Positions 40,356-55,205 are shown, counted from the stretch's first letter. The stretch: 64,000 nt of DNA from an uncultured Gemmatimonadales bacterium (GCA_963741945.1 CAVUKA010000008.1:1-64000); one strand, 5' to 3'. Notes: generated from the letters alone by a model not told the origin. Numbers and translations: made by a program.

Positions 40356-40650
40356 CCCCGGCCCGCTGGGGGGGGAAACCCCGGACAGCATCGCGCCGGG
40401 TTGTCCCCCGCCGTCCCGCGGACGTACGCGTAAGGGAAGCTCCCACACGATGCTCCCGGTCCGTCCCGACGTCACAATGGTGCAACTCCGGGTGGTAAGC
40501 GGTCGTGGAGTGAGCGAAATTGCGCGCGAGCAGGGAGGTCGAGGGGCGCGGAAGGGTGCGGTGCCGTGCCTTGTTGCACTCCAGGGCTTGTGCGAGGTTT
40601 CGGCCATCGGGGGCCGTGTGGCCGGAACCGCAGACAGGGGCGAGATGGGG

Positions 40651-41757
40651 ATGAGCGGCGGCGGGAAGTCAGGAGGAACGGGGATCGTGATGCTGAACCT
40701 CGGGGGGCCGGAGACCCTGGAGGACGTGAGGCCGTTCCTGCTGGAGCTGTTCGCCGACCGTGAGATCATCCAGCTGCCGGTCCAGGACTGGCTGGGCCCG
40801 TTCATCGCGAAGCGGCGGACGAAGGGAGTGCAGGAGCTGTATCGGGGAATCGGTGGGGGCTCACCGATTCTGAAATGGACACGGGAGCAGGGCGCGGGGA
40901 TGGTGGAGCGCCTGGACCGTCTGTCTCCGGCGACGGCGCCGCACCGGTTCTATGTGGCGTTCCGCTACATCCATCCGCGCAGCGAGGATGCGTTGCGGCA
41001 GATGAAGGCGGACGGTGTGGAGCGGGCGGTGGCGTTCACGCAGTACCAGCAGTTCTCGTGCGCGACGACGGGCTCGAGCCTGAACGAGCTGTGGCGGGCG
41101 GCGGGCCGGCTCGGGATGGACCAGGACTTCCGGTGGAGCGTGATCGATCGCTGGCCGACGCACCCCGGCTTCGTCGAGGCGATGGCGAAGAAGGTGCGCG
41201 AGGGGCTGGAGACATGGCCGGCCGCAGAGCGAGACGACGTGCTGCTTCTGTTCAGCGCGCACTCGCTACCGCTGTCCATCATCGACCGGGGTGATCCGTA
41301 CCCGCAGGAAGTCGGGGCGAGTGTGCACGAGGTGATGAAGGCGGGCGGCTTCGCGAACCGGTACATGTTGTCGTACCAGTCGGAAGTGGGGCCGGTGCGG
41401 TGGCAGGGTCCGAGCACGGAGCAGGTGATCCGGGACCTGGGCGCGAAGGGGCGGAAGAACGTGCTGGTGGTGGGGATCGCGTTCACGAGCGACCACATCG
41501 AGACGTTGTCGGAGATCGACATCGAATACGGCGAGCTGGCGCACGAGGTCGGGATCACGGAATTCCGGCGCGCGCCGTCGCTGAACGGGGACCCCGCGTT
41601 CCAGGACGCCCTCGCGGACATCGTTCTCGAGCACCTCCGGAGCGGTGAGGCGTGCTCGCGGCAGTACGGTCTGCGCTGCCCCGGGTGTGAGAACCCGCAG
41701 TGTCGGAACATCCTGAATCCGGTGGCGCCGTTCGATCGGACGCCCCTGAAGGTGTGA
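40651..41757 (+). CDS. hemH: Protoporphyrin ferrochelatase with C-terminal Cys cluster
   Basis: MLNLGGPE, IGGGSPI, FRYIHP, FSAHSLP, AFTSDHIETL, C-terminal CPGCENPQC; ATG 40645 alternative. Confidence 0.96.
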   Translation: MSGGGKSGGTGIVMLNLGGPETLEDVRPFLLELFADREIIQLPVQDWLGPFIAKRRTKGVQELYRGIGGGSPILKWTREQGAGMVERLDRLSPATAPHRFYVAFRYIHPRSEDALRQMKADGVERAVAFTQYQQFSCATTGSSLNELWRAAGRLGMDQDFRWSVIDRWPTHPGFVEAMAKKVREGLETWPAAERDDVLLLFSAHSLPLSIIDRGDPYPQEVGASVHEVMKAGGFANRYMLSYQSEVGPVRWQGPSTEQVIRDLGAKGRKNVLVVGIAFTSDHIETLSEIDIEYGELAHEVGITEFRRAPSLNGDPAFQDALADIVLEHLRSGEACSRQYGLRCPGCENPQCRNILNPVAPFDRTPLKV

Positions 41758-41761
41758 CGCC

Positions 41762-42601
41762 ATGTTGAACACGCTTGCGGTCCTGAACGGCTTGCTGCCG
41801 GTGGGATACCTGCTGGCGTTGCTCGCGTACATCGTGGTGTTCGCGCAGCCGGAGGCCCGGGCGGCGTGGGTGGCGCCGCTGATCACGTGGGTGGTGGTGG
41901 GGGTGCACGTCGTCTACCTCGCGCTGAGCGGCGTCTCGTATCGCCACATCCCGCTGGCGAACACCTGGGAGAGCCTGACGTTCATCGCGTGGGCGGTGGC
42001 GCTGGTCTACCTCGTTCTGGAGTGGCAGATGCGGGATCGGGCGACAGGGGTCTTCCTCCTGGCGGGCGTCCTCTTCCTGCAGATGCTGTCGACGGCGTTC
42101 ATCACGCACAGCCGTGAGGTCCCGGCCATCCTGCGCTCGCCCATGTTCGGAATCCACGTGACCACGGCGATGATCGGGTACGTGGCACTGGCGGTGTCGG
42201 CCGTGTACGGGGTCATGTACCTGTTGCAGTACCGCCAGCTGAAGCGGAAGCACGTGGGGCTGCTCTTCCAGCGCCTGCCCAACCTCGAGACGCTGTCCCG
42301 GCTGAACGTCCGGGCGCTGGCGCTCGGGTGGACGGCGCTCACCGTGGCGATCCTCGCCGGGACAGTGTGGGCGCTGACGCTCGAACACACGGGCCAGCTC
42401 CACGTGAACCTGCTGGTCGACCCGAAGTTCCTGCTCACCGTGGCGGTCTGGGTCGTGTATGGCGCTTGCCTGGTCGGGCTCTGGCTGTTCCGGTGGCCCA
42501 AGAGCACGCTGGCGTCGATCACGGTGATGGCGTTCGCGTTCATGGTGGCGTCTTCGCTCACCGTGACGCTCCTGATTCCGTCGTTCCACGATTTCACGTA
42601 A
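41762..42601 (+). CDS. CcsA/HemX-like cytochrome c assembly family membrane protein
   Basis: About 8 TM segments, GIHV, QYRQLKRK, LPNLETL, DPK; directly upstream of hemA. Confidence 0.85.
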   Translation: MLNTLAVLNGLLPVGYLLALLAYIVVFAQPEARAAWVAPLITWVVVGVHVVYLALSGVSYRHIPLANTWESLTFIAWAVALVYLVLEWQMRDRATGVFLLAGVLFLQMLSTAFITHSREVPAILRSPMFGIHVTTAMIGYVALAVSAVYGVMYLLQYRQLKRKHVGLLFQRLPNLETLSRLNVRALALGWTALTVAILAGTVWALTLEHTGQLHVNLLVDPKFLLTVAVWVVYGACLVGLWLFRWPKSTLASITVMAFAFMVASSLTVTLLIPSFHDFT

Positions 42602-42605
42602 GGCC

Positions 42606-43916
42606 ATGGAGCTGATCGTCCTCGGCACCAGCCACGACACCGCCCCGGCGGAGATCCGGGACCAGGTGCAGTTCAGCCCCACGGATGTGGAGCAGTTCTG
42701 CGGCCGGCTGCGTGGGCGGCGCGAAGACGTGCTCGAGGTGTCGGTCCTGTCCACGTGTAACCGGACGGAGATCTACTCGCTGGTCCGTGAGCCCCCGATC
42801 GGGGAAGGACTGATCCGGGAAGCGGTGGCGCTGCAGAAGGGCGTGCCGCACATGGGCAACGGGCGCTACACCTACGTTCTGAAGGGGCGGTCGGGCGTAC
42901 AGCACCTCTTCCGGGTGGCCGCGGGGATCGAGTCGCTCATGGTAGGCGAGCCGCAGATCCTGGGGCAGGTGCGGCATGCCCACAAGATGGCCGACCAGAG
43001 CCGGGGCGCTGGGGCGGTTTTGACGCGCCTGTTCAACTCGGCGGTGCACGTGGGGAAGCGGGCGCGCACGGAGACGGAGATCGGGAGGGGCACCGTCTCG
43101 GTGGCGTATGCGGCCGTGGAGATGGCGCTCAAGGTGTTCGACGGGCTGGAGAAGCATACGGTGGCAGTGGTCGGGGCCGGGGAGACCGGCACGCTCGCCG
43201 CCAAGCACCTGGCGGAGCAGAAGCCGGGTCGGCTCATCGTGCTGAACCGAACGCTCGAGCGGGCGCAGCGGCTGGCCGCGGAGCTGGGTGGCGAGGCGAG
43301 GCCGTTCGGCGACCTTGAGGATGTTCTCCGCGAGGCGAGTGTGGTGGTCACGGCCACGTCATCGCCGGAGCCCGTGCTGCAGAGCGATCACCTGAACGCG
43401 GTGGTGAAGAAGCGGGGTCGTTCACCGCTGGTGCTGATCGACATTTCGAACCCGCGGAACATCGATCCGGCCGTGGGCAAGATCGACAGCATCTTCCTTT
43501 ACGACCTGGACGCGCTGGAGAGCATCGCGGACCAGAACCGGTCGCGCCGGGCGAAGGAGATCCCGCGCGTGGAGCGGATCGTTGACGAGGAGGTGGATGC
43601 GTTCTTCTCCTGGTACGACTCGCTCCAGGTGGTGCCGGTGCTGCGTGCGCTGCGAGACCGCTTCCACGAGATCGGTCGGGACGAGGTGGCGCGGCAGGGG
43701 CGGCGGTTCAGCCGCACGGATGACGACGTGCTGGAGGCGTTCACACGGTCGCTGATCAACAAGCTCCTGCATCAGCCTACCACGCGGATCCGGAACATGG
43801 ACGCGGACACGTACCACGGGCTGACGAAGCTGGTGGCCGTGCAGGAGCTGTTCGAGCTGGAACCCGAGCGGTACCAGAACGGGAGCGTCGACGATCACGA
43901 GGGGGACGACGAGTGA
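42606..43916 (+). CDS. hemA: Glutamyl-tRNA reductase
   Basis: LSTCNRTEIY, HLFRVAAGIESLMVGEPQILGQV, GAGETG, DISNPRNID, KLLHQPT. Confidence 0.98.
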   Translation: MELIVLGTSHDTAPAEIRDQVQFSPTDVEQFCGRLRGRREDVLEVSVLSTCNRTEIYSLVREPPIGEGLIREAVALQKGVPHMGNGRYTYVLKGRSGVQHLFRVAAGIESLMVGEPQILGQVRHAHKMADQSRGAGAVLTRLFNSAVHVGKRARTETEIGRGTVSVAYAAVEMALKVFDGLEKHTVAVVGAGETGTLAAKHLAEQKPGRLIVLNRTLERAQRLAAELGGEARPFGDLEDVLREASVVVTATSSPEPVLQSDHLNAVVKKRGRSPLVLIDISNPRNIDPAVGKIDSIFLYDLDALESIADQNRSRRAKEIPRVERIVDEEVDAFFSWYDSLQVVPVLRALRDRFHEIGRDEVARQGRRFSRTDDDVLEAFTRSLINKLLHQPTTRIRNMDADTYHGLTKLVAVQELFELEPERYQNGSVDDHEGDDE

Positions 43917-44866
43917 CCGAGGGGATGCTGCGGATCGGGACGCGGGGATCGGCGCTGGCACTCTGGCAGGCCGAGCACGTGGCGGCACGGATCCGGGCAA
44001 TGCCCGGCGCGCCCGGCGTCGAGCTGGTTCACATCCAGACGGAAGGGGACCGGGTCCAGGACGTGGCGCTTTCGGCGCTCCCGGGCAAGGCCTTTTTCAC
44101 GAAAGAGCTGGAACAAGCGATCCTGGACGGCCGGGTAGACCTGGCGGTCCACTCGCTGAAGGATCTGGCGACCTCGATGCCCGAGAGGCTAGCGCTGACG
44201 GCAGTGCTGGAGCGGGAGGACCCGCGGGACGTCCTCATCGCCCGCGATGGCCTCGGGCTCGCCGATCTGCCGGCAGGCGCGCGCGTGGGCACGAGCAGCC
44301 TGCGACGGCGCGCCTTCCTGCGCACCTGGCGCGACGACCTTGCGCTGATGGACCTGCGCGGCAATGTGCCGACCCGTATCCGCCGACTCGACGAGGGCGA
44401 CTACGATGCGATCGTCCTTGCCGCCGCGGGCGTGAAGCGGCTGGGGCTGGGCGCCCGCATCACTGACTATTTCACCGCCGGGATCCTGCTGCCCGCGGTT
44501 TCGCAGGGCGCCATCGGGATCCAGGCGAGGCGGGACGACCGGCGTGTGACCCGTTGGATCGAGCCGCTGAACCACGGGGCGACGCGTCGGTGTACGCTGG
44601 CCGAGCGGGCGCTCCTTCACGAGGTGGAAGGCGGCTGCCAGGTCCCGCTGGGCGCCCACGCGGAGCTGGACGATGCCGGGCTCACGCTTCGCGCCGCCAT
44701 TGCCGCGCTGGACGGAAGCCGGGCGGTATCCGGCTCCATTTCCGGCGACCCCGGGGACGGCGAGGCTCTGGGTCGGCGGCTTGCCCGCACGCTCCTGGAG
44801 CGCGGAGGCGGCGAGATCATGGATGGGATCCGCTCCGCCATGGGGACCGGTGTCGGAGAGGGCTGA
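43913..44866 (+). CDS. hemC: Hydroxymethylbilane synthase
   Basis: GTRGSALALWQ, AVHSLKD, GTSSLRR, LRGNVPTR, EGGCQVP. Confidence 0.98.
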   Translation: MTEGMLRIGTRGSALALWQAEHVAARIRAMPGAPGVELVHIQTEGDRVQDVALSALPGKAFFTKELEQAILDGRVDLAVHSLKDLATSMPERLALTAVLEREDPRDVLIARDGLGLADLPAGARVGTSSLRRRAFLRTWRDDLALMDLRGNVPTRIRRLDEGDYDAIVLAAAGVKRLGLGARITDYFTAGILLPAVSQGAIGIQARRDDRRVTRWIEPLNHGATRRCTLAERALLHEVEGGCQVPLGAHAELDDAGLTLRAAIAALDGSRAVSGSISGDPGDGEALGRRLARTLLERGGGEIMDGIRSAMGTGVGEG

Positions 44867-45647
44867 CCGGCCGCTGCACGGGGTCGGCGTGGTCGTGACC
44901 CGGGACGAGAGCGGCGATGGGCCGCTGACGGCCGCGCTGCGAGAGCGCGGCGCCGACGTGATCCACTGGCCGGTCATCGCCGTGGCTCCACCCGAAGATC
45001 CGCGACCGCTCGATTCCGCGGCATCGCAGCTGGCCAGCTACGACTGGGTAGCGTTGACCAGCCGACGGGCGGTGGCCGCGCTGGCAGAGCGGGTACGGGA
45101 GATCCCGTCCGGGGTCCGGCTGGCAGCGGTAGGGGAGGGAACGGGCGAGGCCGCGGAGGCGCGCGGGTGGCGCGTGGACCTGGTGGCGGGCGAGCAGACC
45201 GGCGAGGCGCTGGTCGCCGCCTTCCAGTGCGAGGGCCTCGCCCGGGGGGCGCGCGTTCTCTTCCCGGCCAGCGATCTCGCGCGCGACACGGTTCCCGCGG
45301 GGCTCGAGCGGGCGGGGGCGGCGGTGGAGCGGGTGACCGCGTACCGTATCGTGCCGGCCGCGCTGGACGCGGACGCATGCAGGCGAATGGTGGAGGAGGA
45401 GAAGGTGGACGTGGTGAGCGTGACCAGCCCGTCGTCCGGCGAGAACCTCATCGCGGCAGTGGGTGAAGCGCTGTTCCGGCACCTGGCGGAGACGGTGCCG
45501 TTCGCTGCCATCGGGCCGACCACGGCCACGGCGCTCCGGAGTTTCGGTGTGAAGGATGTGGTGGAGGCAGAAGAGCATTCGTTCGATGGACTGGCGGAGG
45601 CCGTTGCGCGGCACTTCGCCGCGGGACGGGGAAGAGGAGCGACATGA
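44850..45647 (+). CDS. hemD: Uroporphyrinogen-III synthase
   Basis: [34 protein letters not shown]; between hemC and hemB. Confidence 0.92.
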
Positions 45648-46639
45648 GCTATCCGATAAACAGGCCGCGGCGGCTGCGCCGGGGCGAGACGTGGCGGAGG
45701 GCGGTGCGGGAGACCGTGCTGACCGTGAACGACCTGATCTACCCGATGTTCGTGGTGGACGGGGAGGGCGTGCGGATCCCGGTGAAGAGCATGCCGGGGA
45801 TCGAGAACCTGTCGGTCGACGAGCTGGTGAAGGAGTGCCGCGAGGTGGCGGAGCTCGGGATCCCGGGTGTGATTCTGTTCGGCGTGCCGCCGGACGAGGA
45901 GAAAGATCCTGAAGGGACGGGCGCCTACGATCCGGAAGGACTCGTGCCGCGGGCGATCCGGGCGCTCAAGAAGGAAGTGCCGGATCTCCTGGTCTGGGCG
46001 GACGTGTGCATGTGCGAGTACACGTCGCACGGGCATTGCGGCCTGCTCACCGATGAGGGCGAAGTGGACAACGACCCCACGCTCATGCTGCTGGCTCGCG
46101 CGGCCCGCGTGTACGCGGAAGCGGGTGCGGACGCCGTGGCACCCAGCGACATGATGGATGGCCGCGTGGCTGCCATCCGGGAAGAGCTGGACGACGCCGG
46201 CCTGTCGCACGTCCCGATCGTCGCCTACGCGGCCAAGTACGCTTCGGCCTACTACGGCCCGTTCCGCGATGCGGCCCACTCGGCGCCCTCGTTCGGTGAC
46301 CGCAAGGGCTACCAGATGGACCCGGCGAACGCCGAGGAAGCGCTGCGGGAAGTGGAGCTGGACATCATGGAGGGCGCCGACATGGTCATGGTGAAGCCCG
46401 CGGGCCCGTACATGGACATCCTCCAGCGCGTGAAGGAGACGTTCCGTATGCCCACGGCCGCCTACCAGGTATCTGGCGAGTACGCGCTGATCAAGGCAGC
46501 GGCGGAGAAGGGGTGGGTGGACGAGCCGCGCATCGCCATGGAGAGCCTGCTGGGACTGAAGCGAGCCGGCGCGGACCTGATCCTCACCTATTTCGCGAAG
46601 GACGTGGCGCGGGCACTCCGGCAGGGCCCGGGTGAATGA
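45644..46639 (+). CDS. hemB: Porphobilinogen synthase (Zn-type Cys motif)
   Basis: [42 protein letters not shown]. Confidence 0.98.
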
Positions 46640-47972
46640 GCGGCGGGGGACGCCAGTGGGGACCGATGCGGGGGCGGTGATGCGGACGACCGAGAGCGAG
46701 CGGCTGTTCAGTGCTGCGAAGCGGGTCATTCCCGGCGGCGTGAACAGCCCGGTCCGCGCGTTCGGCGCCGTGGGCGGCACGCCCCGCTTCATCGCGGGCG
46801 CGTCGGGTGCCCGCATGGTCGACGTGGACGACAACACCTACATCGACTACGTCGGCTCCTGGGGCCCGATGATCCTCGGGCACGACCACCCGGCGGTGCG
46901 GGCCGCGCTCGCCGGGGCGCTGGAACACGGAACATCGTTCGGCGCCCCGTCGCCTGGCGAGGTCGAGCTGGCCGAGCTGGTGGTGGAGATGGTGCCGTCG
47001 GTCGAGGTGGTCCGGTTCGTCAACAGCGGGACGGAGGCGACAATGAGCGCCCTCCGGCTGGCCCGGGCCGCCACGGGTCGGGCCGGCGTCATCAAGTTCC
47101 GGGGCGGCTATCACGGCCATGCCGACGCATTCCTCGTGGAGGCGGGCTCCGGCGCGGCGACGCTGGGCGTGCCGTCGAGTCCGGGCGTCACCGAGGGTGC
47201 GGCCCGCGACACGCTCGTGGCCGAGTACAACGATCTGGATTCGGTGCGCGCGTCGATTGAGGATCGGCCGGGCGACGTCGCCGCGGTCATCGTGGAGCCG
47301 GTGGCCGGCAACATGGGGTGCGTCCCGCCGCAGCCCGGCTTCCTGGAAGGGCTGCGATCGCTGTGTGACGAGCACGGGATGCTGCTGATCTTCGACGAGG
47401 TGATGACCGGCTTCCGGGTGGCCGAGGGCGGAGCCCAGGCGCGCTTTGGTGTCCGGCCGGACCTGACGACCCTGGGCAAGGTCATCGGGGGCGGGCTCCC
47501 CGTGGGCGCGTTCGGCGGCCGCGACGACCTCATGCGGCGAATCGCGCCGGACGGTCCCGTCTACCAGGCCGGCACGCTGTCAGGGAACCCGCTGGCCGTG
47601 GCGGGCGGGCTTGCGACATTGAGGCACCTGCGGGCGCACCCGGAAATCTATGACCGTCTGGAGGCGCTCGGTTCGAGGCTGGAGGACGGCTTCCGCGCCG
47701 TCATCGCCGCCCATGCCGATCGCCTGTCCTGGAACCGGGTCGGCACCATGGCCACGCTCTTCTTCACGGCGGGCCCGGTCACGGGGTGGGCGAGCGCGAA
47801 GGACCAGGATCGAAGCGCGTTCGCGGACTACTTCCATCGCATGCTGGACCGGGGCTTCTATCTCCCTCCCAGCCCGTTCGAAGCGCTGTTCCTGTCCGCG
47901 GCACATACGGAGGCAGATGTGGACGCCACGGTGGACGCCGCGGCCGACGCACTGGCAGAGGTGCTGGCGTGA
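46632..47972 (+). CDS. hemL: Glutamate-1-semialdehyde 2,1-aminomutase
   Basis: [48 protein letters not shown]; true start may be ATG 46680. Confidence 0.98.
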
Positions 47973-49057
47973 GCGGTGGGGCGGGGCAGAACGCTGCGGC
48001 CGCGTCGGCCACGGGCTCACGGCCGGTGTCCGGGGCGGAGCCCGTGTTCCTGCGTGCGTGCCGACGCCTGCCGGTGGAGCACACGCCCGTGTGGATCATG
48101 CGCCAGGCGGGGCGGTACCTCCCGGAGTACCGGGCCATCCGGGACAAGGTCGATTTCCTCACGTTGACGAAGACACCCGATCTCGCCGCAGAGGTGACGA
48201 TCCAGCCGATCCGGCGGTTCGGTATGGATGCGGCCATCCTGTTCAGCGACATCATGACCCCCATCGAGGGGATGGGGATCGATCTGGAGTTCGATCCCGG
48301 CCCGGTGATCCGCGCCCCGATCCGGTCGGCGGCGGATGTGGACAGGCTGCGCGTGGCCGACCCGGAGGAGACCACGCCGTTCGTACTGGAGACGATCCGG
48401 ATCCTGCGGCGCGAGCTGCCGGCGAGCGCACCACTCATTGGCTTCGGCGGGGCGCCGTTCACGACGTACTGCTATGCAGTGCAGGGCAAGGGCTCGAAGA
48501 CGTTCCACGAGGCGAAGGCGTTCCTGTTCAGCGAGCCGGCCGCGGCCAAGCGGCTGCTCGAAAAGCTGGCGGACACGACCGCGCGCTACCTGGGCGCGCA
48601 GGCCGAGGCCGGGGCGCAGGCCCTGATGATCTTCGATTCCTGGGCCGGCATCCTCGCGCCTCACGAATACCGCGCGTTCGCGCTCCCGGCCGTGCAGCGG
48701 GTCACGGCGGCGTTGAAGGAGCACGGCGTGCCGCTACTCTATTTCCCGCATCAGGGCGCGACGCTGCTGCCGGCGGCCGCCGAGTCGGGCGCCGACGTCC
48801 TCGGCATCGACTGGCGGCTCCCCCTGGCCGATGCGCGGGCGCTGCTGGGACCGGATCTGGCCGTGCAGGGTAACCTGGACCCGGCGGCGCTGTTCGCGCC
48901 GCGGGCGGAGCTGGCGCGCCAGATCGACCGCGTGCTGGAGTCCGCGGGCCCCGAGCCGGGGCACGTGTTCAACCTGGGCCACGGAATCGAGCGGACCACC
49001 GATCCGGATGCGGTGGCGTTCCTCGTCGACCGTGTACACGAGCAGACGTTGCGATAG
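47969..49057 (+). CDS. hemE: Uroporphyrinogen decarboxylase
   Basis: [44 protein letters not shown]. Confidence 0.98.
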
Positions 49058-49065
49058 AGGCAGTC

Positions 49066-50460
49066 ATGGAGCATTCCGTCCACGTGGACTTCGACACGGT
49101 CAAGCGCTTCGACAGGCCGGGGCCGCGCTATACATCGTATCCCACGGCGGTGGAGTTCACGGAAGCGGTGGGCGTGGACGCCTACCATGCGAAGCTGGCG
49201 GAGGCCAACGCGAAGGCCGACGCGCCGCTCAGCCTGTACGCGCACCTTCCGTTCTGCGAGCACCGCTGCCTCTTCTGCGGCTGCCACGTGGTGATCACGC
49301 CGCACATGCCCGTGGCCGAGAAGTACATGGCGTACATGAAGCGGGAGATCGACCTTCTGGCCGAGCACCTCCCGGACCGGCGCGGCGTGGTCCAGATGCA
49401 CTGGGGCGGCGGGACCCCGACGTACTACTCGCCGGCGCAGCTCGAGGAGCTGTTCGCGCATTTCCAGAAGTACTTCACGTTCGTGGACGGGGCCGAGCGG
49501 GCGCTGGAAGTCGATCCGCGTGTGACCAGCCGCGATCATCTGGCGACGCTGGCGGAGCTCGGCTTCAACCGACTCAGCCTGGGCGTGCAGGACCTCACGC
49601 CCGAGGTGCAGGTGGCCATCGACCGCAACCAGACGTACGAGCAGACTGCGCGACTGGTGGAGACCGCCCGCGAGCTCGGCTTCAACGACGGCATCAACAT
49701 CGACCTGATCTACGGCCTGCCGAAGCAGGAGCCCGAAACGTTCGGCAGGAACCTGGACCAGGTGATCGCGATGCGGCCCGACCGGGTAGCCGTCTACTCC
49801 TTCGCCTATGTCCCCTGGATCCGCGGGCACCAGAAGAAGCTCGACCGGGACCAGCTGCCGAGCCCTGAAGTGAAGCTGGAGCTGTACATCATGGCCATGG
49901 AGCGCTTCCTGGCCGCGGGCTATCAGCCCATCGGGATGGACCACTTCGCGCTGCCCGAGGATGAGCTGAGCGTGGCAGCGCACGAGGGGCGGCTCCACCG
50001 CAACTTCATGGGCTACACGGTCATGCCGGCGTCGGACATGATCGGGGTCGGGATCAGCGGGATCGGTGAGGTGCAGCACGGCTTCTTCCAGAACGAGAAG
50101 AAGCTGAGCACCTATTACGAAGCGCTGGATGCCGGCCGCCTCCCCGTAGCGCGGGGCTACCTGCTGGACGAGGATGACCGCATCCGGCAGCACGTGATCC
50201 AGCAGATCATGTGCAACTTCCGGGTGCGGAAAGCGGACGTGGAGGCCCGCTTCGGCGTCGATTTCGACGATTACCTGGCCGACTCTCTCGCCCGACTCGG
50301 CGACGTGCAGGAAGCCGGGTTCGTGGAGCTCGGCCCCGACGAGCTGCGGGTCACGCCCGAGGGTCGGCTGTTCGTCCGAAACGTGTGCATGGCCTTCGAC
50401 CGCTACCAGCTCGCGAAGGAGAAGGCCGCGGAAAAGCCGGTGTTCTCCCGAACGGTTTGA
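49066..50460 (+). CDS. hemN: Oxygen-independent coproporphyrinogen III oxidase (radical SAM)
   Basis: GPRYTSYPTA, HLPFCEHRCLFCGC, HWGGGTPT, RNFMGY. Confidence 0.97.
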   Translation: MEHSVHVDFDTVKRFDRPGPRYTSYPTAVEFTEAVGVDAYHAKLAEANAKADAPLSLYAHLPFCEHRCLFCGCHVVITPHMPVAEKYMAYMKREIDLLAEHLPDRRGVVQMHWGGGTPTYYSPAQLEELFAHFQKYFTFVDGAERALEVDPRVTSRDHLATLAELGFNRLSLGVQDLTPEVQVAIDRNQTYEQTARLVETARELGFNDGINIDLIYGLPKQEPETFGRNLDQVIAMRPDRVAVYSFAYVPWIRGHQKKLDRDQLPSPEVKLELYIMAMERFLAAGYQPIGMDHFALPEDELSVAAHEGRLHRNFMGYTVMPASDMIGVGISGIGEVQHGFFQNEKKLSTYYEALDAGRLPVARGYLLDEDDRIRQHVIQQIMCNFRVRKADVEARFGVDFDDYLADSLARLGDVQEAGFVELGPDELRVTPEGRLFVRNVCMAFDRYQLAKEKAAEKPVFSRTV

Positions 50461-50470
50461 GGCGGGTCCC

Positions 50471-51925
50471 ATGAAGCGCGTCGTCCTGATCGGCGGCGGG
50501 ATCACCGGACTGTCCACGGCCGTGCACCTGAACGACGGGGCGGACGCCATCCCGGGCGGTCTGGACGTCGTCGTCCTGGAAGCCCGGGAGCGGCCGGGCG
50601 GCAACATACAGACGGACCGGCCGGACGGGTTCCGGGTGGAGATGGGCCCCAACGGGTTCCTCGACAACGCGCCGGCCACGCTCGCACTGGTGGACCGCAT
50701 AGGTCTCACCGATCGGCTGCAGCGCGCCAACGACAACGCCGCGCGACGGTTCATCTACCGCAACGGCCGACTGCACGAGGTCCCCACGGGGCCCGCGGGC
50801 TTTCTGAAGAGCCAGGTGCTGAGCCTGCCGGGTCGCCTGCGGGTGTTCGGTGAGCCGTTCGCTCGATCGCGACCGGACGATATGGACGAAACGGTGTTCG
50901 ACTTCGCCGCCCGCCGCATCGGGCCGGAAGCGGCCGGCGTTCTCGTGGATGCCATGGTCTCCGGCGTCTTCGCCGGCAACGTCCATGAGCTCAGTCTCCA
51001 GAGCAGCTTCCCGAAGATGGCCCGCATGGAGGCCGAGCACGGCGGACTGGTCAAGGCCATGATCGCCGGGATGAAGAAGCGGCGGTCCGCCAGGAAGGAA
51101 GCGGCCGAGCGACGCGCCCGCGGTGAGGATGTGGCCGAGCTCACCGCCCCCGGCGGTCCCGCCGGGCCGGGCGGCACCCTGACTTCGTTCCGCGATGGGC
51201 TGGACACGCTGGTCCAGGGTCTCGCCGACGCAGTCGGTGACCGCCTCCGCACCGACAGTCCCGTCCGCACTGTCCAGCGCGCGGACCAGGGCCACTGGGA
51301 TGTCGTGCTCGAGAACGGCGAAACACTCCGCGCCGATGCCGTGGTCGTGACCACGCCGGCTCCCATCGCCGCGCCGCTGCTCCAGCAGGTCGACCCCACG
51401 CTCGCCGCGACAGTGGACGAGATCCGGACCGCCGGCCTGGCCGTGGTGGCCCTCGGATTTCGCCGGCGCGCGCTCCCCGATATCGATCTGGACGGCTTCG
51501 GATTCCTCGTTCCCCGCGACACGGGGCCGGACATCCTGGGCTGCCTGTGGGATTCGAGCGTCTTCCCCGGACGCGCGCCGGAAGGGAAGGTCCTCCTCCG
51601 CTGCATGATCGGGGGAGCGCACGACCCCGAAGCCGTCCGCACTCCCGAGCCGGCGCTCCTCGAGCGCGTGCGCCACGACCTCCAGACCACCATGGGGATC
51701 CCGGCCCGCGTCGAGCCCGCCCTCACCCGCGTCTACCGCTGGCCGCTGGGTATCGGGCAGTACACCACCGGGCACCAGGATCGGCTGGACCGCATCCACG
51801 GCCGACTCCGTGAGAACCCGGGGATCTGGGTGGCAGGCAGCTCCTTCTACGGCATCAGCATGAATGCCTGCTTCGAGAAAGCGCCCCAGCAGGCGAAGGA
51901 GATCCTGGCCTACCTCGCGGGCTGA
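50471..51925 (+). CDS. hemY: FAD-dependent protoporphyrinogen oxidase (HemY/HemG type)
   Basis: IGGGITGL, EMGPNGF, SGVFAG, GFGFLVP, WDSSVFPGRAP, QYTTGH. Confidence 0.95.
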   Translation: MKRVVLIGGGITGLSTAVHLNDGADAIPGGLDVVVLEARERPGGNIQTDRPDGFRVEMGPNGFLDNAPATLALVDRIGLTDRLQRANDNAARRFIYRNGRLHEVPTGPAGFLKSQVLSLPGRLRVFGEPFARSRPDDMDETVFDFAARRIGPEAAGVLVDAMVSGVFAGNVHELSLQSSFPKMARMEAEHGGLVKAMIAGMKKRRSARKEAAERRARGEDVAELTAPGGPAGPGGTLTSFRDGLDTLVQGLADAVGDRLRTDSPVRTVQRADQGHWDVVLENGETLRADAVVVTTPAPIAAPLLQQVDPTLAATVDEIRTAGLAVVALGFRRRALPDIDLDGFGFLVPRDTGPDILGCLWDSSVFPGRAPEGKVLLRCMIGGAHDPEAVRTPEPALLERVRHDLQTTMGIPARVEPALTRVYRWPLGIGQYTTGHQDRLDRIHGRLRENPGIWVAGSSFYGISMNACFEKAPQQAKEILAYLAG

Positions 51926-51935
51926 ACCGATCCGA

Positions 51936-52448
51936 TTAGGTCGTCGACTCCCGTTCGGTCACGGCGCCGGGCGCCGGTCGGTTCCGGCTCCAGATCCAGA
52001 ACTCCACGCTGCTGGTGAGGAGCGCGAGCGAGATCATCAGCTCCAGCGACCCGACCGCTGTTTCAGCCCAGAAACCACCGGTATCGGCCAGGGTCCGTAG
52101 GAGGATCCCCGCGACCACCATCGGGATCAGGGCCAGGAAGAAGCCCGGACGGAAGAACTGCCAGACGCGGGGGTCGTCGAGAGTGTGAATGCGGGCGAGA
52201 TTCTTCCGGCACCCCCGCGCAAACGCCGCGCGTCCGCGCAGGCTGCCCACGACGAGGCCGACCCCGGCCACGAGCCAGGGCACCACCTCGTGGACGTGCA
52301 GGTCGGCGGCGGCAAGGACGTAGCTGCTCCCCTTGAGCAGGAGCGCGATCCCGCCTCCGTACCAGACCGTGGCGGCGAGCACGGTGAGCGTGCGCCTCGA
52401 AGCCCTCAATCCCCCCCCCGGTGGTGTGCGGCCAGCGGTCGGCCGCAC
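51936..52448 (-). CDS. Hypothetical membrane protein (about 4 TM)
   Basis: Hydrophobic segments with basic loop RKNLARIHTL; just downstream of the Cyc2-like gene; start uncertain. Confidence 0.7.
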   Translation of the reverse strand: MRPTAGRTPPGGGLRASRRTLTVLAATVWYGGGIALLLKGSSYVLAAADLHVHEVVPWLVAGVGLVVGSLRGRAAFARGCRKNLARIHTLDDPRVWQFFRPGFFLALIPMVVAGILLRTLADTGGFWAETAVGSLELMISLALLTSSVEFWIWSRNRPAPGAVTERESTT

Positions 52449-52484
52449 GGAAAGTAACCGGACCGGGAGGGGCGAGAAAGGCGT

Positions 52485-53903
52485 TTAGAACAGGATCCAG
52501 GCCACCAGGTAGAACGTGTTGTTGTCGGACGCGTTCCGGCCCTGGCCGTCATAGTCGGTGGACGCCCCGTTGAAGCGGGAGTACGCCGTGTACTGGACGG
52601 TGAACTTCGTGTTCAGCCACGGCGTGAAGCTCGCCTGGCCGATCAGCCCGCTGCTGTCGGGCGATCCCGTCCGGCTGCCGTCGACGGCTCCGGCCGCGTA
52701 CACCGATGGCGCAGTGGTTCCCGTGGTCCTGAACGGGGCCAGTGTCAGGCCCAGCCAGCTCTCGCGGAAGAACGTGGCATCCAGGCGGAACGTGTCCAGC
52801 TTTCGCTCGTTGACGCTGCCGCCGGCCAGAACCCAGCCGGGGTGGACGTTCTCGTGGATCCAGGTCGCATGGGTCGAGAGGGCGTCGGCGCTGCCGACGT
52901 GGTGGAGCCAGGAGGCGTCCAGCGCGATGTCGTCGACCTGGTCGGTGGTCCCGGCCGGGGCCGGGTCCTCGGCCATGCGGTCCGCGACCATGCCATACGC
53001 CCCGACGTGGGCGTAGTCGCGGCTCCAGTTGTGCTGCAGGGCGATGCGCCAGTAGGGGGCGACGCCGCTGATGTCGCCACTCGCGTTGTCCGGCAGCGGC
53101 CTGCCCACGCCGGTGGGAGCGGAGCGATAGGCCCCGGCTTCGAGATAGACCTTCTGCGCCCACAGGCCGTAGACGGTGAGTCCGGCCACTTCCTGGGCCA
53201 GGTTCCCGGCGAGCAGCGGCGATGCGGCCGGTGCCGGCGCCGCGGGTGAGCTCGCGTAGGGGAATCCCCAGACGGGGGTGCTGTTCCAGAGATCCTGCAC
53301 CGTGGGCGCGTTGTTCAGCGACAAGCCCCAGTGCAGCGGCTGACCGAACGCTTTCGTCTGGTCAGCGAAGCGCAGGTCGGCGTTGTCCAGGCCGAAGTCG
53401 CCCTCGACCCCGTCGTAGGTGACCTGCGCGAAGCCACCGAGGCGCGGTGTGATCTCGCCACCGAGGAACAGGCTGAGCTGGTCCGGGAGCAGGACGTCGC
53501 CGTTGCGGCTGTCCGGCTGCGAGGCGGCGGTGACCGTGTACGATGTCTGTACCATGAAGGAGAGCGCCGGGATGGCGCCGATGAGGAGCAGGGTCCGATC
53601 TCCCGACTTCGCCTCCACGGTCTCACCCTGGCGCAGGGTGTACCCGTCCAGCTTGAACGCGCGGCCGAACGCCGTCAGTTCGGGGAACTGGGTGTGGCAC
53701 ATGTTGCACGCCATCCCCGTCTGGCGGGCGAACGTTGGCGTGGGCGTGGCGGCCTCCAGCAGGCGAGAGAATGCCGCCGTACCGGCGGCGACGGACCGCG
53801 GCGGCCGCTCGGCCGCTGCCGGGGTGGCGGCGACCACAAGGGCCACCGCCATGGACAGGAACCGGGACAGCGCGCTCCGCACAGCGCTCGTTCCGCGCAT
53901 CAT
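52485..53903 (-). CDS. Cyc2-like fused monoheme cytochrome c / outer-membrane porin
   Basis: SD GGAGG; signal peptide; PTFARQTGMACNMCHTQFPELTAFGRAFKLDGY; beta-strand C-terminal region ending WILF. Confidence 0.85.
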   Translation of the reverse strand: MMRGTSAVRSALSRFLSMAVALVVAATPAAAERPPRSVAAGTAAFSRLLEAATPTPTFARQTGMACNMCHTQFPELTAFGRAFKLDGYTLRQGETVEAKSGDRTLLLIGAIPALSFMVQTSYTVTAASQPDSRNGDVLLPDQLSLFLGGEITPRLGGFAQVTYDGVEGDFGLDNADLRFADQTKAFGQPLHWGLSLNNAPTVQDLWNSTPVWGFPYASSPAAPAPAASPLLAGNLAQEVAGLTVYGLWAQKVYLEAGAYRSAPTGVGRPLPDNASGDISGVAPYWRIALQHNWSRDYAHVGAYGMVADRMAEDPAPAGTTDQVDDIALDASWLHHVGSADALSTHATWIHENVHPGWVLAGGSVNERKLDTFRLDATFFRESWLGLTLAPFRTTGTTAPSVYAAGAVDGSRTGSPDSSGLIGQASFTPWLNTKFTVQYTAYSRFNGASTDYDGQGRNASDNNTFYLVAWILF

Positions 53904-54146
53904 CTCCTCCAGGATGTCCGGGGAAGGACGGGAGGGTGACTCCGGAGACGTGCCGGCGAACGCGGCGGTACCGAAGCTCCCGCGCCGTCGCGTTCATTAC
54001 GTTCCGCGCTCCGCGGAACTCCTGACCAAGCTAAGGGGCAAGGCCCGGGGACGCACGAGGCCCGCGGACGCACGTCACGCCGCGCGCCGTCGCGGAAGGG
54101 AGAAGGGGCTGGCGGCAGGGGAAGGCGCGTGCCATCCTATGACCCC

Positions 54147-54229
54147 GCCGGGGTGGCGAAACGGCAGACGCGGGGGACTTAAAATCCCCTGGGCTTCGGC
54201 CCGTGTGGGTTCGACCCCCACCCCCGGCA
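54147..54229 (+). tRNA. tRNA-Leu(TAA)
   Basis: GCCGGGG...CCCCGGC-A, anticodon arm GGGGA-CTTAAAA-TCCCC, long variable arm GGGC-TTCG-GCCC; no CCA. Confidence 0.97.
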
Positions 54230-54231
54230 CT

Positions 54232-54269
54232 ACAAGGGCCGCAACGGTTTACGCCGCTGCGGCCCTTGT
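54232..54269. terminator. Hairpin between convergent tRNA-Leu and PDZ gene
   Basis: ACAAGGGCCGCA...TGCGGCCCTTGT 12-bp inverted repeat. Confidence 0.7.
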
Positions 54270-54299
54270 CCGTCGAGGCCCGGGTGCGGACCGGCGGTC

Positions 54300-55205
54300 T
54301 CACTCCCCCGGTGCCCCCCGGTGGCCACTTACGGTGGTCCGCTTCTTCTGGCGCATGATCTGGAAGCGGATGGTCTCGTCCGGTCGGTAGGACGCCATGA
54401 TCTCCCGGGCGTGTTCTGCGTCCATCACGTCGCGGCCGTCGATGGAGAGGATCACATCGCCCGCCCGAAGTCCGAGGCTGTCGGCGCGCACCGCGGTCAC
54501 GAGCACGCCATTGCTGGTGCCGAAGTAGGCGCCGAGCTCCGGATTCATGTCCACCAGCTCCAGCCCTCCGGCGCGCCCGCCGAAGAACAAGCGCATGCCG
54601 GGCGCGTCGTGGCCCGAGCGCAGCTCCCAGACGCCGCCCGGCTGTCCCGGTCGTCCCGGCGCGCCGGGCGCCACGCGGATCCGGTCGAGGTCCGGCCGGG
54701 CGCGCACCATCAGCTCGCCGGGTGGGGTGCGTGCGGCCACCACGCTGGCTTCGAGGGTGCGGCCGTCACGGCGGTAGGAGATGGCGACGGTGTCGCCGGG
54801 CTCCACGTCGCCCATCCGATCCACGATGGCGTCCGCGGGCTCGTCGCCCAGCGCTTTCCCGTTCATGCCGGTGATGACATCGCCTCCGCGCAGCCCGGCA
54901 CGTTCGGCGGGTCCACCCGTCACGACCTCATCCACCCGCACGCCGCTGCGCCCGTCGACCTGGACGTCATCGCCCAGCACCAGCCCCAGCCGGGCCCGGT
55001 TCCCCGTGACAGGGAAGGGCAGCGCCCCCGGCGAGACCAGGGCGGGCATGCCGCGGGCCGGTGGGGCGCCGGGCGTGCAGATGCAGGTCTGGCTCTCCCG
55101 CACCGTGTCCGCTTCCTGAGCGCGGGCCTGGACGGTGGTGATCGCAGTCATGACGGCGATTGCGGGCAGGGCGCGCGCAATCGCTCGCAGAGAGGCGGCG
55201 GACAT
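54300..55205 (-). CDS. Secreted tandem-PDZ protein without protease domain
   Basis: SD AAGGAG; signal peptide; GPAERAGLRGGDVI and GLRAGDVILSIDG. Confidence 0.85.
   Translation of the reverse strand: MSAASLRAIARALPAIAVMTAITTVQARAQEADTVRESQTCICTPGAPPARGMPALVSPGALPFPVTGNRARLGLVLGDDVQVDGRSGVRVDEVVTGGPAERAGLRGGDVITGMNGKALGDEPADAIVDRMGDVEPGDTVAISYRRDGRTLEASVVAARTPPGELMVRARPDLDRIRVAPGAPGRPGQPGGVWELRSGHDAPGMRLFFGGRAGGLELVDMNPELGAYFGTSNGVLVTAVRADSLGLRAGDVILSIDGRDVMDAEHAREIMASYRPDETIRFQIMRQKKRTTVSGHRGAPGE

What the first reader, a model, noticed from the sequence alone, without database searches (positions are those of the whole stretch)
52485..53903. Cyc2-type cytochrome-porin (candidate Fe(II) oxidase / extracellular electron transfer) abutting a full heme cluster
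Seen: signal peptide, single CxxCH within PTFARQTGMACNMCHTQFPELTAFGRAFKLDGY, then about 380 aa of beta-strand-like sequence ending in Phe. Established: the PxFAR[Q/K]xxxxCxxCH..P.L..FGR.F...GY N-terminus fused to a porin is the Cyc2 family signature from iron oxidisers such as Acidithiobacillus and Mariprofundus; many homologues have no proven substrate. Inference: this organism may oxidise iron or exchange electrons at the outer membrane. The gene converges on a 10-gene heme cluster, and no periplasmic partner cytochrome is in the window.
Basis: partly seen in the sequence, partly recalled or inferred. Interest (0 to 1): 0.72.

Follow-up and report, generated by a model that had tools for sequence, protein, structure and literature searches.

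The report
Accessory Cyc2 haem-porin beside haem operon
This gene is an ordinary member of the known Cyc2 family (one haem-binding motif fused to a predicted outer-membrane pore) that likely lets a versatile bacterium, probably of the Gemmatimonadota, take electrons from dissolved iron as a side income, and its place next to the haem-synthesis genes is likely incidental because the one same-genus genome compared has the same haem genes without it.

Summary
The ORF is real: 472 aa, one CxxCH in the Cyc2 motif, and a predicted 16-strand barrel (pLDDT 95.6; best fold match OprP, Z 21.9). It is Cluster 2 (Acidithiobacillus type), not Mariprofundus type: 475 versus 68 bits, tree support 99/97. The haem-cluster link does not hold. 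A small membrane-protein gene lies between them. The same-genus genome has the same neighbourhood without this 1.6-kb gene. 0 of 8 family orthologues have haem genes nearby. The host is probably Gemmatimonadota. It has no RuBisCO or acetyl-CoA synthase hit but encodes two cytochrome c oxidases, dsrAB/aprBA/sat, 19 multihaem genes and a second, Cluster 3-type Cyc2. Best reading: accessory Fe(II) electron uptake feeding O2 or NO respiration (0.45); a general redox port is close behind (0.35). Three of five proposed Acidithiobacillus iron ligands appear kept, but they are family-wide. Minor twists, untested: a ~23-aa N-terminal extension and a conserved Met117 (candidate sixth haem ligand). Cyc2 in Gemmatimonadota is already in print, and this scan found such genes before on other DNA. 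New member of a known kind.

The parts
52485..53903 (-). cyc2 Cluster 2-type fused monohaem cytochrome-porin, 472 aa (471 aa from the second ATG at 53900)
53811..53903 (-). Predicted Sec signal peptide, residues 1-31 (basic n-region, hydrophobic core, Ala-Ala-Ala before E32)
   Evidence: read from the sequence; no predictor run
53742..53810 (-). About 23-aa N-terminal extension (residues 32-54) between the predicted cleavage site and the PxFAR motif; it replaces the canonical AxP junction; low-confidence helix at 39-50
53640..53738 (-). Mini cytochrome domain P56-Y88: PTFARQT, CxxCH (53694-53708), PEL, FGRxFKxxGY
52488..53564 (-). Predicted 16-strand outer-membrane beta-barrel, residues 114-472, C-terminal Phe. 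It carries Met117 and the lumen-site candidates Q160, D173, N174, Y284, D329
52480..54105 (.). Approximate segment present here and absent from the otherwise syntenic same-genus genome G001 (edges uncertain by a few tens of bases)
51936..52448 (-). Neighbour: small predicted membrane protein with no Pfam or NCBIfam family (real start probably TTG near 52410). It is kept in G001 (83% identity) without cyc2, so it is backbone
54147..54230 (+). Neighbour: intact tRNA-Leu(taa), divergent from cyc2, also present in G001
40645..51925 (+). Neighbour: haem cluster hemH, ccsA-like, hemA, hemC, hemD, hemB, hemL, hemE, hemN, hemY/G; not linked to cyc2 in relatives

Best explanation
This is a Cluster 2 Cyc2-family protein, a one-haem cytochrome fused to a predicted 16-strand outer-membrane barrel, that likely oxidises dissolved Fe(II) entering the pore and would pass the electrons to the host's O2- or NO-reducing chain as an accessory energy source for a probable heterotroph. 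Shown: the gene, motif, cluster placement, patchy presence, and lack of a conserved link to haem genes. Predicted: the barrel. Inferred, step by step: (1) Sec export and haem attachment by the genome's Ccm-like system; (2) barrel insertion with the cytochrome domain at the periplasmic mouth; (3) Fe2+ binding at conserved lumen acids and tyrosine (D173, Y284, D329); (4) electron transfer to the haem, possibly His70/Met117-ligated; (5) hand-off to a soluble monohaem cytochrome encoded elsewhere, or to the cytochrome c domains of the oxidases; (6) no carbon fixation, so the gain would be ATP for a mixotroph or heterotroph.
For: Motif and length match the published Cyc2 definition. The mature model has pLDDT 95.6 and 16 long strands. 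Its best fold match is OprP 2o4v (Z 21.9, rmsd 3.6, 320 aligned), one of the two templates Keffer 2021 names. It groups with an Acidithiobacillus cyc2 that precedes a dihaem cytochrome (99/97; 33% identity over 467 columns). Profiles built without the query or Gemmatimonadota-labelled rows give 475 bits for Cluster 2 (51 rows), 68 for Cluster 1 (15 rows) and 44 for Cluster 3 (8 rows). Biochemically tested Cyc2s in Clusters 1 and 2 oxidise Fe(II). Mapped through the Acidithiobacillus sp. sequence, D137, Y262 and D308 appear kept as D173, Y284 and D329. Acceptors exist: two CoxB/CtaD oxidases whose subunit II has a CxxCH, a NorB-like gene, a second COX1-family gene beside a cytochrome c, and two ACIII-like operons.
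Against: No activity, expression or haem data. The only verified Cluster 2 enzyme is an acidophile's, 33% identical through a congener. H119 and D138 of its proposed main site are Q160 and N174 here, and H and D occur in only 1 of 75 Cluster 2 rows each. The kept residues are near-invariant across the cluster (73-75 of 75), including genera not known to me as iron oxidisers, so they do not mark iron oxidation. No rus-like operon and no adjacent partner. No RuBisCO or CdhC hit in a 96.7% complete genome. The host carries a dsr/apr/sat island and many multihaem cytochromes, which fit an anaerobic electron-exporting lifestyle equally well. The same-genus genome lacks both cyc2 types, so the gene is dispensable for the lineage.
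Confidence: 0.45

Rival explanations
1. A general or bidirectional outer-membrane redox port. The same haem-in-barrel exchanges electrons with small soluble redox compounds other than Fe(II), or reduces them (Fe(III) chelates, humic quinones, Mn, sulfur species), serving anaerobic respiration rather than iron oxidation.
For: The host has aprBA, sat, dsrAB and dsrMKJ over curated cut-offs, 19 called genes with two or more CxxCH, and an 8-haem / 498-aa / 16-haem trio resembling a porin-cytochrome conduit. Cluster 2 is spread through Ralstonia, Massilia, Bradyrhizobium, Syntrophobacteraceae and Sulfurospirillum genomes. Measured Cyc2 potentials span -130 to +560 mV. A Gemmatimonadota survey says oxidation and reduction cannot be told apart from such annotations (PMC11316326).
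Against: No Cyc2 has been shown to work this way in the passages read. A His/Met-ligated haem, if Met117 is the ligand, would favour a high potential and electron uptake (established cytochrome chemistry, recalled). Cluster 2 cyc2 and dsrA do not track each other: dsrA is in 1 of 4 cyc2-bearing relatives tested and also in cyc2-less G001.
Confidence: 0.35
2. A non-energetic role: redox or iron sensing, protection from Fenton chemistry when the cell meets O2 in iron-rich sediment, or conditioning iron for uptake.
For: A solitary, probably monocistronic or two-gene unit with no dedicated carrier; 7 of 8 family orthologues also lack an adjacent downstream cytochrome. Patchy: 10 of 73 family genomes. 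Codon-adaptation score is middling (35th percentile) against the 94th for the Cluster 3 paralogue.
Against: No sensor, TonB-type receptor or regulator gene lies between hemY and the PDZ gene. No convincing FNR, CRP or Fur box upstream (best 6 of 10, 6 of 10, 8 of 19; consensus boxes recalled). In the wider cluster, 26 of 80 loci have a cytochrome gene directly downstream, which points to electron transfer.
Confidence: 0.15
3. The gene is functionally tied to the haem cluster, for example co-regulated, or a haem sink or exporter.
For: It lies 560 bp from hemY, and the cluster includes a cytochrome c assembly (CcsA-like) gene.
Against: It is on the opposite strand with another gene between. G001 keeps the cluster and both flanks without cyc2. 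0 of 8 family orthologues have a haem gene in the DNA held. In 125 loci, one hemN-like hit (38% identity, at a locus edge) was the only haem-gene match. The genome's many cytochromes explain the cluster.
Confidence: 0.03

Closest known systems
Cyc2 of Acidithiobacillus ferrooxidans (Cluster 2; first gene of the rus operon)
   Same: Same motif, single CxxCH, predicted 16-strand barrel and tree cluster. 33% identity over 467 columns to an Acidithiobacillus sp. cyc2 used as stand-in. D137, Y262 and D308 equivalents appear kept.
   Different: No cyc1/rus/cox operon. H119 is Q160 and D138 is N174. Met117 where Acidithiobacillus sp. has Phe. About 23-aa N-terminal extension. Host is not an acidophilic autotroph by gene content. 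The type-strain sequence itself was not compared.
Cyc2 Cluster 1 (Mariprofundus PV-1, Ghiorsea TAG1_1, Gallionellaceae)
   Same: PxFARQT-CxxCH-PxL cytochrome domain and barrel architecture.
   Different: Sequence similarity only at the N-terminus (E 1e-15 or weaker). Separate clade (100/99). 68 versus 475 bits. No Met at the 117 column in 15 of 15 rows (cross-cluster alignment is weak).
Cluster 3 Cyc2 / Cyt572-type (FARKY motif), including this genome's paralogue at C1:221318-222535
   Same: Fused monohaem-porin plan.
   Different: 27% identity over 142 aa only; 44 bits. The paralogue has its own monohaem cytochrome c gene directly downstream. The Cluster 3 label rests on the motif (recalled) and on separation from the other two clades; no Cyt572 sequence was compared.
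OprP/OprO phosphate porins (PDB 2o4v, 4rjw)
   Same: Closest solved fold: Z 21.9, rmsd 3.6, 320 residues aligned, tied within 1 Z unit with other general porins.
   Different: 10% identity; no haem domain; a shared fold shows no function.

Membership tests
Cyc2 fused cytochrome-porin family | Single CXXCH near the N-terminus | tested here: met
   C66, C69, H70; the only CxxCH; 104 of 104 aligned close homologues have exactly one
Cyc2 fused cytochrome-porin family | PXFAR[Q/K][T/Y] upstream of CXXCH (the screen used by Keffer 2021) and PXL 4 aa downstream | tested here: met
   PTFARQT at 56-62, PEL at 74-76
Cyc2 fused cytochrome-porin family | Leading Ala of the full consensus AXPXFAR (in my reading the signal-peptidase site) | tested here: not met
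   Residue 54 is Pro. Ala is there in 98 of 105 distant representatives with the motif, but in only 3 of 81 close homologues that carry the N-terminal extension. The Ala is part of the consensus, not of the paper's inclusion screen, so this marks a subclade and does not exclude membership.
Cyc2 fused cytochrome-porin family | Length of at least 365 aa with a C-terminal 16-strand beta-barrel porin | tested here: met
   472 aa; AlphaFold2 mature model pLDDT 95.6, pTM 0.92, 16 long strands from residue 114; best fold matches are porins
Cyc2 fused cytochrome-porin family | N-terminal signal peptide | tested here: inconclusive
   Typical pattern by eye, residues 1-31; no predictor available
Cyc2 fused cytochrome-porin family | Hit to the FeGenie Cyc2 HMMs | not testable with these tools
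   The HMMs are not held; Pfam and NCBIfam gave no family. Replaced by home-built profiles.
Cyc2 fused cytochrome-porin family | Cytochrome domain placed as a plug at the periplasmic mouth, haem attached | not testable with these tools
Cyc2 Cluster 2 (A. ferrooxidans cluster) | Groups with Acidithiobacillus Cyc2, apart from Zetaproteobacteria/Gallionellaceae | tested here: met
   FastTree, 100 rows, support 99; IQ-TREE, 40 of those rows, 99/97; midpoint root only; profile scores 475 / 68 / 44 bits
Cyc2 Cluster 1 (neutrophilic iron-oxidiser cluster) | Falls inside the Zetaproteobacteria + Gallionellaceae clade | tested here: not met
   That clade is 100/99 without the query; N-terminal similarity only
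Verified Cyc2 Fe(II) oxidases | Proposed Fe-binding residues H119, D137, D138, Y262, D308 of A. ferrooxidans | tested here: inconclusive
   Mapped through Acidithiobacillus sp. L033 (H119 exact; the others offset by 5-6 residues, inferred): Q160, D173, N174, Y284, D329. Three of five identical, two amide substitutions.
Verified Cyc2 Fe(II) oxidases | Haem reduced by Fe(II); suitable midpoint potential | not testable with these tools
   Needs purified protein
rus-type iron-oxidation operon | cyc2 co-transcribed with a periplasmic cytochrome, rusticyanin and an oxidase | tested here: not met
   Neighbours are a small membrane-protein gene and tRNA-Leu; no other CxxCH gene in the window

The most novel reading that the evidence does not exclude
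A Gemmatimonadota-enriched Cyc2 subclade with an extended mature N-terminus and a His/Met117 haem works as a true neutral-pH Fe(II) oxidase. It would let a dsr-bearing, oxygen-respiring heterotroph flip between sulfate reduction and Fe(II)-fuelled respiration at redox boundaries, using two different Cyc2 types. That would name the unidentified sixth ligand for most of Cluster 2 and join iron oxidation and sulfate reduction in one cell.
Probability: 0.15. Interest if true: 0.6.

Novelty: new member of a known kind. Interest (0 to 1): 0.25.

Why it matters
cyc2 is widely used as a marker for iron oxidation, yet most of Cluster 2 is untested. This copy is a clean case: a solitary accessory gene, present in one genome and absent from its syntenic same-genus relative, in a host with no carbon-fixation hit. 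If it oxidises Fe(II), abundant sediment and soil heterotrophs add to iron cycling. If it does not, Cluster 2 hits should stop being read as iron oxidation. The conserved Met117 gives a single-residue test of haem ligation, which recent papers leave open.

Tried and rejected
Pfam, NCBIfam and PDB sequence searches of the protein: no hit. A profile search of the PDB gave one weak match (6qvm, E 0.019) covering only signal peptide plus CxxCH; rejected as chance. No Cyc2 structure among the Foldseek or VIA rows shown.

Mobile-element reading at tRNA-Leu: the variable segment lies on the 5' side of an intact tRNA, with no integrase gene and no flanking direct repeat of note. GC3 is typical (59th percentile). 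Gain here versus loss in G001 is unresolved. The query groups with P0003-P0005 and Gemmatimonadales rows (100/99), not with same-family orthologues. That fits transfer or hidden paralogy; no clade test was run.

Promoter and terminator scan: nothing above chance. FNR, CRP and Fur boxes: no good match.

ATP-citrate-lyase search: no hit, but no control genome rang, so it is uninformative. MtrB/PioB family: no hit. The 82-aa gene after dsrB had no NCBIfam or Pfam hit at the cut-offs used; 'DsrD-like' is from position and recall only.

Sequencing runs: no RNA holder listed. Contigs of one DNA run match pieces on both sides, and one spans the cyc2 start to the tRNA (53879-54568), but none listed spans the whole region, and that run may be the source sample.

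No protein-atlas answer was obtained for the small neighbouring gene, so it stays unassigned. Contexts of the closest homologues P0003-P0005 were not seen. The first tree run timed out. My hemD query was mis-framed (28-aa hit in G001), so hemD was not properly tested there; the other nine genes were. Rows dropped before the tree: loci with truncated or short ORFs (86 kept) and one near-duplicate (L013). The genome scan returned 80 loci with flanks out of more than 120 matches. No complex prediction was run, since no specific binding claim is made.

Literature: search for Gemmatimonadota + cyc2 + Cluster 2 gave one unrelated paper. Search for Cyc2 + N-terminal extension + methionine + haem ligand gave no listing on this point (listings only).

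Full report
Observation. The ORF at 52485-53903 (-) translates without a break to 472 aa. It has the quoted motif, one CxxCH (C66, C69, H70) and a terminal Phe. The start is probably the second ATG (471 aa), given the ribosome-binding site and the database's own call. The signal peptide (1-31) is read by eye. The haem cluster is real: nine biosynthetic genes plus a CcsA-like gene. It does not abut cyc2: a small membrane-protein gene (51936-52448, -) lies between, and a divergent tRNA-Leu lies upstream. No other CxxCH ORF of 70 aa or more is in the window. GC content is unremarkable.

Family. Pfam, NCBIfam and PDB sequence searches are blank, but homologues are abundant: 2329 among 7992 scored candidates and 2702 cluster representatives. 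Keffer et al. (PMC8406198; passages read) define Cyc2 by PXFAR[Q/K][T/Y], CXXCH, PXL, at least 365 aa and a 16-strand porin like OprO/OprP. All are met. The full-length model had pLDDT 83.9 with a poor N-terminus. The model from residue 53 on reached 95.6, pTM 0.92, with 16 long strands from residue 114. Fold searches return porins; the best wide match is OprP (Z 21.9, rmsd 3.6, 320 aligned), tied with other general porins. The haem was not modelled, so the plug geometry is inferred from the paper.

Cluster. A motif scan of named genomes gave 80 loci with flanks, including Zetaproteobacteria, Gallionellaceae and an Acidithiobacillus cyc2 followed by a dihaem cytochrome. The query aligns end to end with the Acidithiobacillus protein (33% over 467 columns). 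It aligns only at the N-terminus with the Zetaproteobacteria and Gallionellaceae proteins. Trees place it with Acidithiobacillus (99 on 100 rows; 99/97 on 40 rows; midpoint root). Profiles made without the query score it 475, 68 and 44 bits for Clusters 2, 1 and 3. McAllister et al. (PMC7029218; passages) define Cluster 2 by A. ferrooxidans. Keffer et al. warn that much of Clusters 2 and 3 is distant from tested enzymes. Here the cluster also holds Ralstonia, Massilia, Bradyrhizobium, Sulfurospirillum, Syntrophobacteraceae and Acidobacteriota genes.

Catalytic features. Jiang et al. (bioRxiv 10.1101/2021.03.22.436458; passages) proposed H119/D137/D138 and Y262/D308, in mature numbering (haem His is H16). 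A 2026 review (PMC13741234; section on Cyc2 read whole; other passages) reports mutagenesis support for D137/D138 and Y262/D308. Through the Acidithiobacillus sp. stand-in, H119 maps exactly and the others with a 5-6 residue offset, so the mapping is inferred: Q160, D173, N174, Y284, D329. Three of five are kept. They are kept in 73-75 of 75 Cluster 2 rows, while H119 and D138 occur in 1 of 75 each. So a conserved acidic lumen site is likely, but it does not single out iron oxidisers.

Two extras. Met117, on the first barrel strand, is Met in 103 of 104 close homologues and 67 of 75 Cluster 2 rows, and in 0 of 15 Cluster 1 rows. Its alternating position suggests it faces the lumen (inferred). 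EPR of a Cluster 1 Cyc2 shows two axial ligands, His or Met, not identified in the passages read (PMC13692758), and the review's models predict only one ligand. Met117 is therefore a testable candidate. Second, 81 of 119 close homologues have 16 or more residues between the hydrophobic core and the motif, against 7 of 105 distant representatives with the motif (of 150 listed). These mostly lack the consensus Ala. The eight family orthologues show a similar extension. Neither point turned up in two searches (listings only). Supplements and the figshare alignment were not seen and may bear on both.

Context. The same-genus genome G001 has hemH through hemY, the small membrane gene, tRNA-Leu, the PDZ gene, rnz, aroA and cmk in the same order, at 75-83% DNA identity. 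About 1.6 kb holding cyc2 is missing between the membrane gene and the tRNA, and G001 has no cyc2 of either type. In the family, 10 of 73 genomes (own included) have a Cluster 2 orthologue. For 8 of the 9 relatives I read about 8 kb each side (one had 0.5 kb and one 4.9 kb upstream). None has a haem gene, the membrane gene or a tRNA nearby. Across 125 loci, 90 with a long alignment and mostly short flanks, one hemN-like hit appeared. 26 of 80 loci with enough downstream DNA have an adjacent cytochrome gene, but only 1 of the 8 family loci does. The adjacency is therefore incidental, and solitary copies are normal in this lineage. Gain versus loss is open.

Host. RpsA is 71-72% identical to two Gemmatimonadota genomes and 43-47% to an Acidithiobacillus and an Acidobacteriota genome, so the phylum is inferred. 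The 96.7% complete genome has a second Cyc2-like gene with the FARKY motif (C1:221318-222535) followed by a monohaem cytochrome c. My own gene caller found 19 genes with two or more CxxCH. There are four COX1-family genes over cut-off: two cytochrome c oxidases and two NO-reductase-like. There are also two ACIII-like operons, NiFe hydrogenase and a Ccm-like cluster. aprBA, sat, dsrAB, dsrC and dsrM/K/J pass curated cut-offs. RuBisCO and CdhC were not found. This looks like a heterotroph that switches between aerobic and anaerobic respiration.

Mechanism and rivals. Best reading (0.45): accessory Fe(II) oxidation feeding O2 or NO reduction through a periplasmic cytochrome encoded elsewhere. It rests on family biochemistry, the kept lumen residues and available acceptors; every step past the sequence and fold is inferred. 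A general or outward redox port (0.35) fits the anaerobic gene set and the wide range of measured Cyc2 potentials (-130 to +560 mV). Sensing or protection (0.15) fits the solitary gene. A link to haem synthesis (0.03) is contradicted by the comparison above.

Novelty. Cyc2 homologues in Gemmatimonadota are in print (PMC11316326; passage). Horizontal spread of such genes is also reported (PMC10654088; passages). A dsr review (PMC10591310; passages) has no mention of the word Gemmatimonadota. Earlier notes of this scan report similar genes in other Gemmatimonadota genomes; they are unchecked and are not used as support. Verdict: a new member of a known kind, with two small untested twists. Interest 0.25.

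Noticed in passing
G000:C1:220905-222535 (L149): Second Cyc2-like gene (FARKY motif, Cluster 3-type, 405 aa, ends in Phe) directly followed by a monohaem cytochrome c. High codon-adaptation score (94th percentile). Related genes gave weak N-terminal hits in many family genomes, but none in G001.
   Followed up: partly
G000:C6:146800-167700 (L193, L194): Dissimilatory sulfur island: aprBA, two HdrA-like (qmo-like) genes, sat, dsrC, dsrM/K/J, dsrAB, an 82-aa gene in the dsrD position without a family hit, and a dsrL-like flavoprotein. dsrA is also in G001 and G010, not found in G015, G032 or G033.
   Followed up: partly
G000:C4:9919-14422 (L151): 8-haem cytochrome, 498-aa unannotated protein and 16-haem cytochrome in a row: looks like a porin-cytochrome conduit without an MtrB/PioB hit.
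   Followed up: partly
G000:C3:114526-129413 and C4:125978-133544: Two alternative complex III-like operons; the first runs into a cytochrome c oxidase and is followed by NorCB-like genes.
   Followed up: partly
G000: C1:220905, C3:561977, C3:572380, C5:197758, C6:197079: Five related small monohaem cytochromes sharing a CxxCH...KGTxLAPDLTD pattern; candidate periplasmic partners for either Cyc2.
   Followed up: no
window 51936-52448 (-): Small predicted membrane protein with no family hit, conserved tail-to-tail with hemY in G001 (83% identity) but not found beside hemY in three more distant family genomes. Function unknown.
   Followed up: partly
window 41762-42601 (+): A lone CcsA-like cytochrome c assembly gene inside the haem operon, while a separate Ccm-like cluster lies at C8:141300-146900.
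   Followed up: no
window 54041-54074: Two tandem 17-nt near-identical repeats in the cyc2/tRNA-Leu divergent promoter region; possibly chance in 70% GC DNA.
   Followed up: no
window 60640-61020: RpsA carries a long Glu/Ala-rich repetitive C-terminal tail.
   Followed up: no
L159, L162-L168, L171, L173, L177, L178: A group of metagenome Cluster 2 cyc2 genes each have a small monohaem cytochrome gene immediately upstream rather than downstream.
   Followed up: no
G077:C42 and C48; L061: Genomes with two Cluster 2 cyc2 copies (tandem in the Terriglobales locus L061).
   Followed up: no
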